From Candidatus Micrarchaeota archaeon (GTDB taxonomy: Archaea; Micrarchaeota; Micrarchaeia; Micrarchaeales; CABMGC01), in contig JAKAVL010000022.1 of NCBI GenBank assembly GCA_021817305.1, positions 3,365 through 41,074 on the forward strand: a DNA stretch of 37,710 nt, read 5' to 3'. The notes under the pieces are model-generated. The model ran no database searches and had not been told where the DNA came from. It saw nothing but the letters and a program-made list of their open reading frames with translations. Of this stretch, positions 31,748 to 37,240 are shown in pieces. The translations under genes were made by a program, and so were the position numbers. Numbering within the stretch: position 1 is the first letter of the stretch; the number at the start of each line of letters is the position of its first letter.

Positions 31748-32668
31748 TTGCTCGCGGAAATCATAGACCTTGCGCTCGTTTTCGTCCTCGTCGCACTTGT
31801 ATCGGGAAACAACCTGTCCGCATGCGCAGGACCCGCCATAACCGGAAGGGTAGTAAAGAGGAGAACCGGGGTTGTCCTCACAATAATAGGGTACGCTGCC
31901 GGCTTCCTGCTTCAGGGTCAGATATTGCGCAGTGGGGTTAGCAGGCTCATACCGTTCGGCAATTCTCTGATTCCTATAATATTCATAATCTCGATAGCGG
32001 TGTTCATAATCGCGCACAGGAAGCGCGTGCCAGAGTCGCTCTCCGTCACGTTCATCTCCGCTCTAATTGGTGTTGGGCTCGCGTACGGCACCCTCGACAC
32101 GGGGTTCGTGGCAGAGATACTGCTCTTCTGGATAATCGCCGGCATTCTATCCCTCGTGATGGCGTCAGTCGCGCTGCGCGCAGTGCAGAAGGCCCTGTAC
32201 AGGGACAAGGTCTGGAATGGAGTGAGGACAGTGCGCATCCTTCTCCTAGTGTTGTCGTTCTTCACCTCATTTACCCTAGGCGCGAACACCATAGGGGTTG
32301 TCGCATCTGTGCTCCAGCCGACGTGGTACGCATATGTCGTTATACTGCTTGCAATAGTCCTCGGCAGCTTCCTGTTGAGTTCTGGGGAGCTGCGCAGGAT
32401 AGGCAACGAGATAATACCGATCCGCTATGCTAATGCGCTCGTGTCGCAGCTTGTCGCTGCCGCGTTCGTCGAGTTCGCCACCCTCCTCAGCATACCCATA
32501 TCGAACACGCAGATGCTGACAAGCACCATTTACGGCACGGGCCTCGGCTACAAGGAAAAGCTTCTCTCAAAGAAGCCGGCCGTGCAGATAGCATCCATCT
32601 GGATATTCACCGCTGTTTTCAGCGTTTCTGTTGCTTACGCCGCGGCGCGCATCATTGTTCTTCTCTGA
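31748..32668 (+). CDS. PiT (PHO4)-family anion permease, divergent
   Basis: 306-aa polytopic membrane protein. It has two internally repeated signature-like segments, SGNNLSACAGPAITGR and LGANTIGVVAS, in the positions of the PiT GANDVAN-type motifs. TTG start. Confidence 0.65.
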   Translation: MLAEIIDLALVFVLVALVSGNNLSACAGPAITGRVVKRRTGVVLTIIGYAAGFLLQGQILRSGVSRLIPFGNSLIPIIFIISIAVFIIAHRKRVPESLSVTFISALIGVGLAYGTLDTGFVAEILLFWIIAGILSLVMASVALRAVQKALYRDKVWNGVRTVRILLLVLSFFTSFTLGANTIGVVASVLQPTWYAYVVILLAIVLGSFLLSSGELRRIGNEIIPIRYANALVSQLVAAAFVEFATLLSIPISNTQMLTSTIYGTGLGYKEKLLSKKPAVQIASIWIFTAVFSVSVAYAAARIIVLL

Positions 32669-33346: not shown

Positions 33347-33790
33347 TCACGCGTCTCCCACCAGGCCCGCCATCGCGGCCTCTCTCGCAGAATCCCACTT
33401 AACCGATAATTTATACTGTTTCGTTATCCTGGAATGCGACAATCTGATGAACGTATCAAGCAACGCCCTGCCGCTTGCGAACGCCACAAACTCCCTAGGG
33501 TCCACAATTCCTCTGTTACTTATCGCCTTGCCTATGTTCATGGTCCCAGCCGCGAAGAGAAGGACCTCCTTCTGCAACGACTCCGAGCGCATGCTCTTCT
33601 CCGAGTACCTCAGCAACGCATTCATGAATGCCGGAAGCAACCTGTCCTCGAGGCTCCTGGTGTTCCTCATGAGAAGTATGAACCTGTCGCCTCTTGACAG
33701 CTTCAGTGCGATGTCCAGAAGCACCTCCTTTTCAAGGTCTGATCCGGCAAGGCAGGCAGCAGGCTTCTTACCCTTAAAAATATCGTTCAC
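33347..33790 (-). CDS. cgi121: KEOPS subunit Cgi121-like protein
   Basis: SLQKEVLLFAAGTMNIGKAISNRGIV...FVAFA parallels archaeal Cgi121 (...MEILVRASGQRQIHEAIKIIG... as recalled). A GTG start at 33790 gives ~147 aa, the usual size. The ORF-track start 33874 would overlap rps8e. Confidence 0.6.
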   Translation of the reverse strand: MNDIFKGKKPAACLAGSDLEKEVLLDIALKLSRGDRFILLMRNTRSLEDRLLPAFMNALLRYSEKSMRSESLQKEVLLFAAGTMNIGKAISNRGIVDPREFVAFASGRALLDTFIRLSHSRITKQYKLSVKWDSAREAAMAGLVGDA

Positions 33791-33817
33791 GAAACCGTTA
33801 TTAACCTTTTCCTGCAG

Positions 33818-33826
33818 ATATATAAA
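33818..33826. promoter_or_regulatory. Single palindromic TATA element (atatataaa) shared by divergent cgi121 and rps8e
   Basis: It lies ~29 nt upstream of the rps8e ATG (33848) and ~36 nt upstream of the cgi121 GTG (33790). The intergenic space is 57 nt. Confidence 0.45.
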
Positions 33827-33847
33827 CCTATTAAAGTGAGTGTTACC

Positions 33848-34243
33848 ATGAGTCAGTTTGGATCGCAGCTGCACGGAAAGTCCGATAGGAAGCTATACGG
33901 CAACGGCAAGCTCAAGAAGAAGAACAGGGACAAGAAAAGGTACGAGATGGGCGGCTACTTTGCCAACACCAGGCTTGGCGAGGAGAACAAGGTAAACAAG
34001 GTGCGTGGAAGGGGCGCATCCACCAAGAACAAGCTCAAATACGCTGCATACGCCAACCTTCTTGTCGGCAAGTCCTACAAGAAGGTGAAGATCAAGTCGA
34101 TACTAGAGTCGAAGGACAACAGGAACTTCGCAAGGCTGAAGATAATGACGAAAGGCACGGTCATAGACACAGACGAGGGCAGGGCCGTGATAACCAACAG
34201 GCCGGGCCGCGAAGGAAGCATAAACGCAAGGCTCGTCAAGTGA
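33848..34243 (+). CDS. rps8e: Ribosomal protein eS8
   Basis: Lys/Arg-rich ~131 aa. HGKSDRKLYGNGKLKKK..., NKVRGRGASTK, and the ...AVITNRPGREGSINARLV ending, typical of archaeal S8e. Confidence 0.85.
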   Translation: MSQFGSQLHGKSDRKLYGNGKLKKKNRDKKRYEMGGYFANTRLGEENKVNKVRGRGASTKNKLKYAAYANLLVGKSYKKVKIKSILESKDNRNFARLKIMTKGTVIDTDEGRAVITNRPGREGSINARLVK

Positions 34244-34247
34244 TAAT

Positions 34248-34622
34248 ATGCCTGCGCGCGTCTATACCTGCGATTCCGCGGACGCGAACGAGCTGAAGAA
34301 GCTCATGGAGTACGACCCATACCTTGACAAGGACCTCAACGAGGGGCAGCTTGCCGGGCTGAAGAACGACGAGATGGCAAACATAATCTTTGCGAGGCAG
34401 GACTATAGCATAAAGGACGGCATATCCATAAACCTCGACACGAAGAAGTACTATCTTTACCTGAGCGCCAGCGACGAATTCCTGGAAAAGGCAGGCAAAA
34501 AGCTCAAATCCTCGATAAAAAGCATAGCCCGCGCAGACAAGGAGACCGAGGACAAGGTAATCGGAATAGTCGAGGGCGAAAGGTCGCAGAGCGAGCAGGG
34601 CCTCGGCGCGATATTCGGCTGA
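34248..34622 (+). CDS. Hypothetical 124-aa protein with a ribosomal P-stalk-like C-terminal tail (…SEQGLGAIFG)
   Basis: ORF 4 nt after rps8e. The N-terminal ~100 aa are unlike aP1. The last residues match the archaeal stalk tail consensus GL[GS][AS]LFG. Confidence 0.6.
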   Translation: MPARVYTCDSADANELKKLMEYDPYLDKDLNEGQLAGLKNDEMANIIFARQDYSIKDGISINLDTKKYYLYLSASDEFLEKAGKKLKSSIKSIARADKETEDKVIGIVEGERSQSEQGLGAIFG

Positions 34623-34638
34623 AGCCGCAGGTGTGCAA

Positions 34639-35055
34639 ATGGACTTCGAGGAGATAACCGGAAAAGTAAGGGAGCTAAACCTAATCTCTGGAAAGTATGC
34701 ACTTTTCGGTTCTGTTCCCATGACCGCCCACGGAATACGCGAATGCAAGGACATAGACGTGATACTCACACCTGACCTGTACGAAAAATTCAGAAGATCG
34801 GGGGAATGGAGGGAGGAAACCCTGCCCGACGGCGACAAAAAGCTGGTGAAGGAGCCGTTTGACCTCATGAAGACCTGGTGGTCATCAGATTCCTATCACC
34901 GCGATGTTTCAACGCTCATCGCGGAGGCAGACCTGATGAATGGGATACCTGTGGTAAGGCTTGAGGAAGTACTCGCCTGGAAAAAGGCATTCGCACGGGA
35001 GAAGGATCTGAGTGATGTCAAGCTGATTGAGGAGTTCCTGAGCACGCGGAAGTAG
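34639..35055 (+). CDS. Minimal nucleotidyltransferase-fold (Pol-beta superfamily) protein
   Basis: FGSVPMTAHGIRECKDIDVIL, i.e. G-S-x11-D-x-D. About 138 aa. An alternative GTG start lies at 34633. Confidence 0.6.
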   Translation: MDFEEITGKVRELNLISGKYALFGSVPMTAHGIRECKDIDVILTPDLYEKFRRSGEWREETLPDGDKKLVKEPFDLMKTWWSSDSYHRDVSTLIAEADLMNGIPVVRLEEVLAWKKAFAREKDLSDVKLIEEFLSTRK

Positions 35056-35995: not shown

Positions 35996-37240
35996 TCACT
36001 TCACGACTACCTTGTCTGTTATTTCGACTATACGGTCTATGTTGTAGTTGATAGGGTTCCCGAAGCTCGTATTTATTATGAACCTGCCATGCCTGAGGTC
36101 AAGCCTGCCAGCCTTCCCTATAAGCGCGCCAAGTTCATTTACAACAAGCTTGTCCTTGATGCGCCTCTTCCTGAGCACGCGGCTGCGCAGGAAGCCTGCG
36201 GTGTAAGACACGCCTATGCCTATCACTATCGCAAGCGCGGCGAAATCAACGAACTGGGCGAAGTATATCTGGCCGACTATCCATGCGACTATGGAGTAAA
36301 GGAATACCCAGACTATTATCGAAGAGCCTATGTATATGCCGTACCTGAAGTTGCGGAATAGGTACCTGCCGGACTTGGTGTCAAGCATCCTGCCTATGAG
36401 GTAAAGCACGAGGACGACTGGCAGGAGCAGCAGGAAGCCCTCTATGCCGTATGCCACTGCTATCGGAATGCTGGTGCTGAACTCTGCGGTATAATTGCCG
36501 ATGCCTATCAGGGCTCCCACAACAACGAAAATCATGGACGCGAGGTAGAACACAAAGCTCATCCTGTCTATGCTGAAGCCGAAGCCCCTGAACGACTCTA
36601 GAAGCGAGTTTTCGAAGCCGAAGCCCTTTATGAGCAGGTACAGGCCGATAAGCGCAGCCGGGGCCTCCCAGCCGGCGCCAGCAAGGTAGCTTATGGCGAA
36701 TAGAAGTATGATAAGCGCAGGTATGCCGAATATTATGCGCGCATAGTGGGGCTCCTTGAGTTTCTCAAGCACCGTGAAGTATGCGCTCTCCAGATGCTCC
36801 GCCTGCTTCACCACCACCAACTTTATGCTGTTTACCTTGACCCTGGCCTCTACCAGCGGAAGGACCCTGCTGTCGCTCGCCCCGTCGGTCACGAACACGC
36901 ACGAATCGGCCTTGTACCTGTCGAGCACGAGCTCAAGCTGGCGCACCAGCTCGCGGTCTGCCTCGTAGCCCTCTGTCTCCGTGCCCGTTATGAGCGCGAC
37001 GTTGGCTATGTACCCGTTCTTCCTCAGTTCATCATGCATCTTGACTGCCTGGAACATGGCATTCGAATCCGTATCCTCAGGGTCGGCGAGCGCAAGCTGC
37101 GCCGCGCCGCTGAGCACCTGCACCCTGCCGGTCAGCGGCCCGCTTATCCGGGTCTTCCGGTAAAGATCGTTGTCAATGTCGGCTACGAGCACAAGTACGC
37201 GCTCCTCCTTCTTCACCGAGCCTCTCCTTCTCCGCGCCAT
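35996..37240 (-). CDS. DUF373-family archaeal membrane protein
   Basis: N-terminal soluble domain VLVLVADIDNDL...LALADPEDTDSNAMF followed by multiple TM helices and a C-terminal soluble domain. Confidence 0.75.
   Translation of the reverse strand: MARRRRGSVKKEERVLVLVADIDNDLYRKTRISGPLTGRVQVLSGAAQLALADPEDTDSNAMFQAVKMHDELRKNGYIANVALITGTETEGYEADRELVRQLELVLDRYKADSCVFVTDGASDSRVLPLVEARVKVNSIKLVVVKQAEHLESAYFTVLEKLKEPHYARIIFGIPALIILLFAISYLAGAGWEAPAALIGLYLLIKGFGFENSLLESFRGFGFSIDRMSFVFYLASMIFVVVGALIGIGNYTAEFSTSIPIAVAYGIEGFLLLLPVVLVLYLIGRMLDTKSGRYLFRNFRYGIYIGSSIIVWVFLYSIVAWIVGQIYFAQFVDFAALAIVIGIGVSYTAGFLRSRVLRKRRIKDKLVVNELGALIGKAGRLDLRHGRFIINTSFGNPINYNIDRIVEITDKVVVK

What the first reader, a model, noticed from the sequence alone, without database searches (positions are those of the whole stretch)
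34248..34622. Small protein after rps8e ends in a copy of the ribosomal P-stalk C-terminal tail
Seen in sequence: the 124-aa ORF starts 4 nt after the rps8e stop and ends ...EGERSQSEQGLGAIFG* (tail codons 34593-34619). Its N-terminal ~100 residues do not resemble the aP1/L12 dimerisation domain.

Established knowledge:
- Archaeal stalk protein aP1 ends in an acidic linker plus ...GL(G/S)(A/S)LFG.
- This hydrophobic tail is the element that recruits aEF1A, aEF2 and aIF5B, and reportedly ABCE1, to the ribosome.

Inference: this protein could use the same tail to bind translational GTPases off the ribosome, acting as a competitor, a delivery factor or a regulator. I am not aware of such a function being described. 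The next gene, only 10-16 nt downstream, is a minimal nucleotidyltransferase that may act with it.
Basis: partly seen in the sequence, partly recalled or inferred. Interest (0 to 1): 0.6.

Follow-up and report, generated by a model that had tools for sequence, protein, structure and literature searches.

The report
Non-stalk protein carrying ribosomal stalk tail
A small gene fused to the end of the ribosomal protein S8e operon in a tiny symbiotic-type archaeon (Micrarchaeota) encodes a member of a widespread, unnamed protein family. The family's body is unrelated to stalk proteins, but its most conserved part is the short end-peptide that the ribosomal stalk uses to catch translation factors, so it probably handles those factors; binding has not been shown.

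Summary
ORF 34248-34622 (124 aa) starts 4 nt after rps8e and ends ...SEQGLGAIFG. Among 3301 six-frame ORFs of this genome, only it and the true aP1 (another contig, ...GGLASLFG) end hydrophobic-x-x-hydrophobic-F-G.

- **Not aP1.** There is no Pfam or NCBIfam hit, and the first 105 residues show no profile similarity to aP1 or P0. The predicted fold is a small ferredoxin/KH-like alpha/beta domain, a long helix and a floppy tail.
- **A wide family.** It occurs in 149 of 151 Micrarchaeota genomes sampled, 58 of 101 Thermoplasmatota and about 30 of 151 Halobacteriota, and also in Aenigmarchaeota and Woesearchaeota. The only invariant columns are the tail residues.
- **Its own tail form.** The family has G-phi-G-x-I-F-G, against G-L-(G/S/A)-(A/S)-L-F-G in 185 aP1 proteins.
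- **Neighbours.** rps8e lies directly upstream in 80 of 80 loci of the window's order. The downstream nucleotidyltransferase is there in only 2 of 80, so it is not a partner.
- **A lead.** Genomes with the family often have a P0 without its own tail, but a tree-aware test was not significant.

Factor binding is inferred, not shown. The scan has already noted this family on other DNA.

The parts
33836..34243 (+). rps8e (ribosomal protein eS8), 135 aa, GTG start. It is the gene directly upstream of the stalk-tail gene.
   Evidence: PF01201 E 3.3e-24 and TIGR00307 E 7.4e-25. It lies directly upstream on the same strand in 80 of 80 related Micrarchaeota loci.
34244..34247 (+). 4-nt spacer (TAAT) between the rps8e stop and the ATG of the stalk-tail gene. 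This suggests co-transcription and probably coupled translation.
   Evidence: Sequence read. The spacer length is most often 4 nt (27 of 48 parsed loci; range -1 to 32).
34248..34622 (+). Stalk-tail protein gene, 124 aa plus stop, pI 4.8. Member of an unnamed archaeal family.
   Evidence: ORF. There are 134 close homologues and 156 cluster representatives by profile search. No Pfam, NCBIfam or PDB sequence match. pI.
34248..34535 (+). N-terminal alpha/beta domain, residues 1-96. Order of elements: b1, a1, a2, b2, b3, a3, then a short b4. It carries the invariant motifs Y-D-P-x-L-D and N-x-I-x-x-R-Q.
   Evidence: AlphaFold2 model with mean pLDDT 88. The same core fold is predicted for a 98-aa distant member, pLDDT 86. 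Only generic ferredoxin/KH-like structural matches were found, best Z 8.2 and 8.5. Invariant columns.
34539..34598 (+). Long acidic C-terminal helix, about residues 98-117, leading to the tail.
   Evidence: DSSP on the model gives a helix at 98-122. pLDDT is about 93 up to residue 110 and falls towards the end.
34593..34619 (+). Stalk-type tail E-Q-G-L-G-A-I-F-G (residues 116-124), with hydrophobic triad L119, I122, F123.
   Evidence: G118, G120 and F123 are the only invariant columns in the 72-sequence family alignment, and G124 is kept in at least 90%. hhalign aligns only these last 16-18 columns with the aP1 profile (P 1.3e-5, probability 80%). The triad spacing is that of aP1 L103/L106/F107 (PMC6125642).
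34633..35055 (+). It is a lineage-specific insertion between the tail gene and argF, not a conserved partner.
   Evidence: No Pfam or NCBIfam hit. It is present downstream in only 2 of 80 related loci (L002 and L003).

Best explanation
**What it is.** The gene encodes a housekeeping translation accessory of an undescribed family, here called 'stalk-tail proteins'. A small acidic ferredoxin/KH-like alpha/beta domain carries, at the end of a long helix, a flexible C-terminal peptide of the ribosomal-stalk type (acidic/small residues, then G-phi-G-x-I-F-G).

**Proposed mechanism.** The tail docks as a short amphipathic helix, through its phi/I/F triad, into hydrophobic pockets of the translational GTPases (aEF1A, aEF2, aIF5B) that the aP1 and aP0 tails use. 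The N-terminal domain places this extra factor-docking peptide somewhere other than the P0 spine. The protein is made together with ribosomal protein eS8. It most likely adds to or partly replaces stalk tails in keeping factors near the ribosome, for example where P0 has lost its own tail, and is less likely to block them.

**Shown here:**
- the ORF and its tail;
- family-wide invariance of the tail under amino-acid-level selection;
- no relation to the aP1 or P0 bodies;
- near-universal presence in the phylum;
- fixed rps8e linkage in the window's order.

**Inferred:** binding to the GTPases, action on or near the ribosome, and any link to tail-less P0.
For: - **Tail match.** The tail aligns with aP1 only in its last 16-18 residues (hhalign P 1.3e-5). 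It has the same i, i+3, i+4 hydrophobic spacing that is needed for ABCE1 binding by aP1, in the motif region cited as the major binding site for aEF1A and aEF2 (PMC6125642).
- **Specificity.** Only this protein and aP1 carry such an end in the genome.
- **Conservation.** The tail residues are the only invariant columns across 72 diverse members, and 262 of 277 sequences keep the motif. Synonymous codons vary freely at the invariant residues.
- **Core gene.** It is present in 149 of 151 Micrarchaeota genomes and 85 of 85 genera, mostly as one match per genome.
- **Operon.** It lies directly after rps8e in 80 of 80 loci, most often with a 4-nt gap.
- **Candidate partners.** aEF1A, aEF2 and aIF5B are encoded in the genome.
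- **P0 tail.** P0 lacks the tail in all 30 Micrarchaeota read. In Thermoplasmatota, 29 of 32 genomes with tail-less P0 carry the family. Counts there: with the family, 29 tail-less and 19 tailed; without it, 3 tail-less and 39 tailed.
- **Exposed tail.** Model confidence drops in the last ~10 residues in two independent models, as expected for an exposed flexible tail.
Against: - No binding data exist, and no complex prediction could be run.
- The tail has its own form. In the family the residue before F is I in 85%, the Gly after the first hydrophobic residue is invariant, and that hydrophobic residue is variable, often F. In 185 aP1 proteins both hydrophobic positions are L in 100%. The partner or its preference may therefore differ from aP1's.
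- The link to tail-less P0 is not exclusive. 29 genomes with the family keep the P0 tail, and a large Halobacteriota clade without the family has a tail-less P0 (14 genomes in all). A tree-aware independent-pairs test was not significant: 7 supported pairs, with the family changing the same way in about 1.2 of them.
- rps8e linkage is confined to one order. Other Micrarchaeota families, Thermoplasmatota and Halobacteriota show no conserved translation neighbour.
- The protein is acidic (pI 4.8), so direct rRNA binding is unlikely, and no ribosome-binding site can be proposed.
Confidence: 0.45

Rival explanations
1. Off-ribosome binder of translational GTPases. The free protein uses the tail to compete with the stalk and so sequesters, buffers, chaperones or regulates aEF1A, aEF2 or aIF5B away from the ribosome, for example as a brake on translation.
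For: The tail evidence is the same as for the best explanation. The protein is small and acidic, with no detectable stalk-anchoring domain and no recognisable rRNA-binding motif. The KH-like fold lacks the GXXG loop (sequence, models).
Against: - The gene is near-universal and mostly found as one match per genome, and it is translationally coupled to a ribosomal protein gene. That would produce an inhibitor in step with ribosomes.
- Enrichment in genomes whose P0 has lost its tail is easier to explain by redundancy with stalk tails than by antagonism.
- No stress-related or regulatory neighbours were seen.
Confidence: 0.25
2. The tail resembles the stalk peptide only superficially and serves a different partner. 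It could be another hydrophobic-groove protein, or it could work as a C-terminal docking motif of the hydrophobic-aromatic-x kind used on proteasome activators. The family's function would then lie outside translation-factor handling.
For: - The family tail has its own strict form, G-phi-G-x-I-F-G, distinct from the uniform aP1 G-L-x-x-L-F-G in the same genomes.
- Outside one order there is no translation-related gene neighbourhood.
- Similarity to aP1 covers only 16-18 residues at 80% probability.
Against: - The acidic/small-residue run before the motif is also stalk-like.
- In the own genome the motif occurs only on aP1 and this protein.
- rps8e coupling is present in 80 of 80 loci.
- There is a raw association with P0 tail loss in three phyla.
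- The aP1 tail itself binds structurally unrelated pockets by induced fit (PMC6125642), so a variant form can still bind the same factors.
Confidence: 0.15
3. It forms a two-gene functional unit with the downstream minimal nucleotidyltransferase, for example as an adaptor that brings the enzyme to a translation factor.
For: The two ORFs are 10-16 nt apart on the same strand in this window. The same arrangement is seen in the two closest relatives, L002 and L003.
Against: The nucleotidyltransferase-like ORF is absent from this position in 78 of 80 related loci; a homologue of argF lies downstream in 61 of the 80, usually directly. The ORF has no Pfam or NCBIfam hit. The family exists in hundreds of genomes without it.
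Confidence: 0.03
4. It is a divergent genuine stalk protein: an aP1 paralogue that binds the P0 spine.
For: It has a stalk-type tail and acidic character. The C-terminal ~45 aa of two distant members weakly match the end of the P0 model NF003098 (E 0.015-0.025).
Against: - A normal aP1 sits next to L1 and P0 on contig C19.
- There is no PF00428 hit.
- Residues 1-105 compared with aP1 and P0 profiles give a probability below 1%.
- The predicted N-domain is alpha/beta, not the helical dimerisation domain of aP1.
Confidence: 0.02

Closest known systems
Archaeal ribosomal stalk protein aP1 (L12e/P1; Pfam PF00428), for example P. horikoshii aP1, whose C-terminal peptide was crystallised with aABCE1 (PMC6125642) and with aEF1A (PMC4267659)
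   Same: - The extreme C-terminus has an acidic/small-residue run followed by G-hydrophobic-x-x-hydrophobic-F-G.
- The hydrophobic triad has the same i, i+3, i+4 spacing.
- The end is flexible.
- The protein is acidic overall.
   Different: - The body is unrelated: an alpha/beta domain instead of the helical dimerisation domain.
- There is no Ala/Pro-rich hinge.
- The gene lies outside the L11-L1-P0-aP1 cluster.
- The tail form differs: I instead of L before F, and an invariant Gly after the first hydrophobic residue, which is itself variable.
- Nothing suggests binding to the P0 spine.
Archaeal P0 (uL10) C-terminal extension
   Same: In typical archaeal P0 the same tail sits on a non-aP1 body. 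Two distant members of the family weakly match the last ~48 positions of the P0 model NF003098.
   Different: There is no similarity to the P0 body. In this genome and in all 30 Micrarchaeota read, P0 itself has no tail. The family is not a simple split-off piece of P0, because its alpha/beta domain has no counterpart there.
Type I KH domains and small ferredoxin-like domains (C-terminal domain of TT1547 in 2cve; domains III and V of EF-G, LepA and TetM; C-terminal domain of aSBDS in 1p9q)
   Same: The predicted topology b-a-a-b-b-a(-b) superposes on these at Z 6-8.5 over 60-70 residues in both models.
   Different: Scores are in the range the tool gives for common arrangements. There is no GXXG loop, sequence identity is 3-17% in the matches quoted here, and Foldseek finds nothing at E <= 0.001. 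No functional inference is justified.

Membership tests
aP1 / Ribosomal_60s (PF00428) | N-terminal helical dimerisation domain that binds the P0 spine | tested here: not met
   No PF00428 hit. Residues 1-105 against an aP1 profile give hhalign probability 0.8%. The predicted fold is alpha/beta.
aP1 / Ribosomal_60s (PF00428) | C-terminal acidic stretch ending G-L-x-x-L-F-G | tested here: met
   The protein ends S-E-Q-G-L-G-A-I-F-G. hhalign aligns the last 16-18 columns with aP1 (P 1.3e-5). The feature is met in a variant form, with I before F and an invariant Gly after the first hydrophobic residue.
aP1 / Ribosomal_60s (PF00428) | Gene in the L11-L1-P0-aP1 cluster, as the stalk protein of the genome | tested here: not met
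   The genuine aP1 (100 aa) lies after L1 and P0 on contig C19 (L001). This gene follows rps8e on contig C4.
Unnamed 'stalk-tail protein' family (defined here and in earlier notes of this scan) | Protein of about 100-155 aa: small alpha/beta domain, long helix, and G-phi-G-x-[IL]-F-G at the extreme C-terminus | tested here: met
   Profile search E down to 1e-50. Alignments A1 and A2. Tail present in 262 of 277 sequences. Two concordant models.
Type I KH domain | b-a-a-b-b-a topology | tested here: inconclusive
   The predicted topology agrees, and KH domains superpose at Z 6-7.5, but this is within the range of common arrangements.
Type I KH domain | GXXG loop between helices 1 and 2, which binds nucleic acid | tested here: not met
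   The segment between the helices reads E-Y-D-P-Y-L-D-K-D-L-N-E and has no GXXG. KH Pfam hits in distant members are below threshold (E 0.015-0.15).
Translation-factor-binding stalk peptide (functional class) | Direct binding to aEF1A, aEF2, aIF5B or ABCE1 | not testable with these tools
   No complex prediction or binding assay was available. aEF1A, aEF2 and aIF5B genes are present. ABCE1 was not detected in this clade.

The most novel reading that the evidence does not exclude
Many archaea have a second carrier of the factor-docking stalk peptide that is not anchored to the stalk. This free or separately anchored small protein would form its own pool of translational GTPases or hand them to the ribosome. 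Its presence would have allowed repeated loss of the tail from P0: all sampled Micrarchaeota and many Thermoplasmatota, Methanocellales and Methanoperedens. That would add a new component to the archaeal translation apparatus.
Probability: 0.4. Interest if true: 0.8.

Novelty: new variant of a known kind. Interest (0 to 1): 0.65.

Why it matters
The C-terminal stalk peptide is the known handle by which archaeal and eukaryotic ribosomes recruit elongation, initiation and recycling factors. So far it has been described only on the stalk proteins themselves.

A separate, old and widespread family whose single most conserved feature is this peptide suggests an unrecognised layer of factor handling in archaeal translation. 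This is especially notable because the family is a core gene of a whole phylum with minimal genomes, and is coupled to an r-protein gene.

The question can be tested directly with existing assays: peptide binding, hybrid-ribosome GTPase assays, and ribosome profiling or cryo-EM in cultured Methanocella. It also bears on why P0 tails are dispensable in some lineages.

My full-text searches found no paper describing such a protein. They cover only the held library.

Tried and rejected
- **Family libraries.** Pfam and NCBIfam scans of the protein and of 10 distant members gave nothing above threshold.
- **Solved structures.** A PDB sequence profile search gave a best E of 0.06, to designed proteins. 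Foldseek against the PDB found nothing at E <= 0.001. VIA-align wide searches on two models gave only generic ferredoxin, KH, PII or ACT matches at Z <= 8.5.
- **ESM Atlas.** Only 'hypothetical protein' clusters.
- **aEF1B substitute.** Rejected: aEF1B is present in the genome.
- **Nucleotidyltransferase partnership.** Rejected by synteny, 2 of 80 loci.
- **Piece split off from P0.** Rejected: there is no similarity to P0 outside the tail.
- **P0 tail loss and the family.** The raw counts are strong. However, the independent-pairs test on a P0 tree was not significant, and a parsimony mapping on a midpoint-rooted single-gene tree gave implausible 'regains' and was discarded.
- **Gene context elsewhere.** Context in other Micrarchaeota families, Thermoplasmatota and Halobacteriota was uninformative.
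- **Viral contigs (IMG/VR).** No relatives found with two profiles.
- **Tool limits.** I had no handle for Thermoproteota, Asgard or Methanobacteriota genomes, so presence there is untested.

Full report
**1. The observation**

The window holds an ATG-started ORF at 34248-34622 (+) of 124 codons. It begins 4 nt after the stop of a gene at 33836-34243 that is clearly rps8e (PF01201 E 3.3e-24; TIGR00307 E 7.4e-25). The product ends ...EGERSQSEQGLGAIFG, so the coordinates and the reading of the first-stage reader are correct.

The window is contig C4 of an 840-kb assembly that is 81% complete. Homologues name the lineage as Micrarchaeota.

**2. The protein is not the stalk protein**

- The genome has an ordinary aP1 on contig C19. 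It is 100 aa, follows L1 and P0, matches PF00428 at E 1.2e-14, and ends ...AAGGLASLFG.
- The 124-aa protein has no Pfam or NCBIfam hit.
- In profile-profile comparison, only its last 16-18 columns align with an aP1 profile (P 1.3e-5, probability 80%).
- Residues 1-105 show nothing against aP1 or P0 (probability 0.8% and 0.2%).
- AlphaFold2 gives a confident model (pLDDT 88, pTM 0.77). It has a three- to four-stranded alpha/beta domain (b1 3-9, a1 10-21, a2 32-39, b2 52-57, b3 67-73, a3 76-89), then a long helix from residue 98. Confidence falls to 71 and then 52 over the last ~14 residues.
- A 98-aa distant member modelled from its own alignment gives the same plan: b-a-b-b-a-b, a long helix and a floppy end (pLDDT 86).
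- Structure searches return only generic small alpha/beta domains: the 2cve C-terminal domain, KH type I, domains III and V of EF-G/LepA, PII and ACT. Scores are Z 6-8.5, and Foldseek finds nothing at E <= 0.001. The KH-defining GXXG loop is absent.

**3. The tail is specific and under selection**

- Among 3301 six-frame ORFs of at least 50 aa in the genome, only this protein and aP1 end hydrophobic-x-x-hydrophobic-F-G.
- The protein belongs to a large family. There are 134 near-length homologues at E <= 0.001, and 156 cluster representatives by profile search of 1.8 billion proteins.
- In a 72-sequence alignment spanning the family (19-52% identity to the query), the only invariant columns are G118, G120 and F123, and G124 is kept in at least 90%.
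- 262 of 277 collected sequences end in the motif. The others are mostly truncated or frameshifted.
- At these residues all four Gly codons, both Phe codons and three Ile codons are used among close relatives, so the constraint is on the peptide.
- The triad L119/I122/F123 has the spacing of P. horikoshii aP1 L103/L106/F107. Those residues contact ABCE1 and are required for its activation, while the last Gly is dispensable. The same paper calls L/GxxLF the major binding region for aEF1A and aEF2 (PMC6125642, read).

**4. The tail has its own form**

In 185 aP1 sequences from three phyla the motif is G-L-(G/S/A)-(A/S)-L-F, with L at both hydrophobic positions in every case. In 261 family members it is G-(F/L/I/M/V)-G-x-(I in 85%)-F-G, with the Gly after the first hydrophobic residue invariant. 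The same contrast holds within single genomes of Methanoperedens, Methanocellaceae, Thermoplasmata and the window's own genome. So the tail is not kept identical to aP1 by gene conversion. It may favour a subset of aP1's partners, or a different partner.

**5. Distribution**

| Group | Genomes with the family | Source |
|---|---|---|
| Micrarchaeota (phylum) | 149 of 151; 131 of 133 high-quality; 85 of 85 genera; all 20 family-level groups; mostly one match each | |
| Thermoplasmatota sample | 58 of 101 | |
| Halobacteriota sample | 31 of 151, one of them doubtful | |

- Titled records include Thermoplasmata, Methanocellales, Methanoperedens, Aenigmarchaeota and Woesearchaeota.
- All source names are 'hypothetical protein', apart from one evidently spurious JGI name.
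- No relative was found in IMG/VR viral contigs.
- Other archaeal phyla could not be reached.
- One genome in the Micrarchaeota samples, G029, is unpublished. The tallies 149/151 and 30/30 tail-less P0 include it and become 148/150 and 29/29 without it. No other claim rests on it.

**6. Gene context**

- In 80 of 80 related loci (the 124-aa form, from the window's order), rps8e lies directly upstream on the same strand. A homologue of argF lies downstream in 61, and Cgi121 lies divergently upstream in 43. The nucleotidyltransferase-like ORF is present in only 2, the closest relatives.
- The rps8e-to-start spacer is most often 4 nt (27 of 48 parsed loci).
- In other Micrarchaeota families (the ~105-aa form), in Thermoplasmatota and in Halobacteriota there is no rps8e neighbour and no conserved context.
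- The coupling to an r-protein gene is therefore stable but specific to this lineage. The suggested partnership with the nucleotidyltransferase is not supported.

**7. A lead: P0 without a tail**

In the own genome P0 (288 aa) ends ...EEKKEEAKE and has no stalk motif. The same is true in four other carriers from three lineages. I then read the P0 C-terminus next to aP1 in 203 genomes.

| Phylum | With family: tail-less / tailed P0 | Without family: tail-less / tailed P0 |
|---|---|---|
| Micrarchaeota | 30 / 0 | none sampled |
| Thermoplasmatota | 29 / 19 | 3 / 39 |
| Halobacteriota | 20 / 10 | 14 / 39 |

- In Halobacteriota, most of the 14 tail-less genomes without the family belong to one clade. 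The genomes without the family that I read there were a subsample of my own choosing.
- The raw association is strong in Thermoplasmatota, where 29 of 32 tail-less P0 genomes carry the family.
- It is not exclusive, and it is confounded by shared ancestry. An independent-pairs test on a P0 tree found only 7 supported contrasts. The family changed the same way in about 1.2 of them and the opposite way in 0.1, which is not significant.
- I treat this as a lead. It is compatible with redundancy between the family's tail and the P0 tail.

**8. Candidate partners**

aEF1A, aEF2 and aIF5B are encoded in the genome, and so is aEF1B. ABCE1 was not found. The RLI Fe-S domain is not detected over its cut-off in the own genome or in 20 relatives. 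The full-length ABCE1 model scores at most 85 bits against a cut-off of 469 in 13 genomes, and these hits are generic ABC ATPases. If this holds, ABCE1 cannot be the partner in this clade.

**9. Interpretation**

The best-supported reading is a constitutive translation accessory that presents a stalk-type factor-docking peptide on an unrelated scaffold. I lean towards a helper role, as an extra or replacement factor-catching arm near the ribosome (confidence 0.45). A competitor that holds factors away from the ribosome is less likely (0.25). The reasons are the near-universal presence with mostly one match per genome, the coupling to rps8e, and the tail-less P0 pattern. None of these shows binding or location. 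A diverged partner remains possible because of the tail's own form (0.15). A divergent aP1 and a pairing with the nucleotidyltransferase are essentially excluded.

**10. Relation to earlier notes of this scan**

After forming this reading I looked up earlier notes. The same family has been reported on other DNA several times: e1-704501, e1-937761, e1-761818, e1-2591917 and e1-2758778. One of them also noted the tail-less P0 of Micrarchaeota. These are unchecked AI notes and are not independent evidence.

This report adds:
- the rps8e linkage count;
- the rejection of the nucleotidyltransferase partnership;
- the comparison of tail forms between aP1 and the family;
- the three-phylum P0 tally, with its negative tree-aware test;
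- the apparent lack of ABCE1.

Noticed in passing
L001:550-1416 (own genome contig C19); also L348-L376: P0 (uL10) of this genome is short (288 aa) and ends ...EEKKEEAKE without the G-L-x-x-L-F-G stalk tail. The same holds in all 30 Micrarchaeota P0 genes read, while aP1 keeps the tail. One of these genomes (G029, locus L365) is unpublished.
   Followed up: yes
own genome G000 and 20 relatives: No ABCE1 was detected. The RLI Fe-S domain PF04068 is never over its cut-off, and the best score to the full-length model NF009945 is 85 bits against a cut-off of 469 (generic ABC ATPases only). All four archaeal control genomes score over the cut-off. A missing ribosome-recycling ATPase in this clade would be remarkable and needs checking on complete genomes.
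   Followed up: partly
window 34633-35055 (+): The 140-aa ORF between the tail gene and argF has no Pfam or NCBIfam hit. It occurs at this position only in the window and its two closest relatives (L002 and L003). It looks like a recent insertion into the otherwise compact rps8e / tail gene / argF arrangement.
   Followed up: partly
L280, L281, L286, L288, L290-L293, L300, L301, L307, L313 (Halobacteriota): A clade of Halobacteriota without the stalk-tail family also has a tail-less P0, ending in a conserved ...IYEKDVIDAIIGKAxRE... helix. P0 tail loss is therefore not confined to carriers of the family.
   Followed up: partly
proteins P0178, P0190, P0198, P0228, P0235, P0258; P0217, P0237; P0089, P0092, P0112-P0114: The family has architectural variants. 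Some have a Cys-rich (zinc-ribbon-like) insertion after helix 1. Some have two tandem alpha/beta domains with a single tail (175-194 aa). A Micrarchaeota subgroup has a ~30-residue insertion (153-155 aa).
   Followed up: no
window 33347-33874 (-): A weak Cgi121 (KEOPS subunit) homologue (PF08617 E 1.9e-5) lies divergently upstream of rps8e. The arrangement recurs in 43 of 80 related loci.
   Followed up: partly
window 35996-37240 (-) and 31748-32668 (+): A DUF373 membrane protein (PF04123 E 1.2e-75) and a PHO4-type phosphate transporter (PF01384 E 2.9e-26) flank the locus. They appear unrelated to the finding.
   Followed up: no
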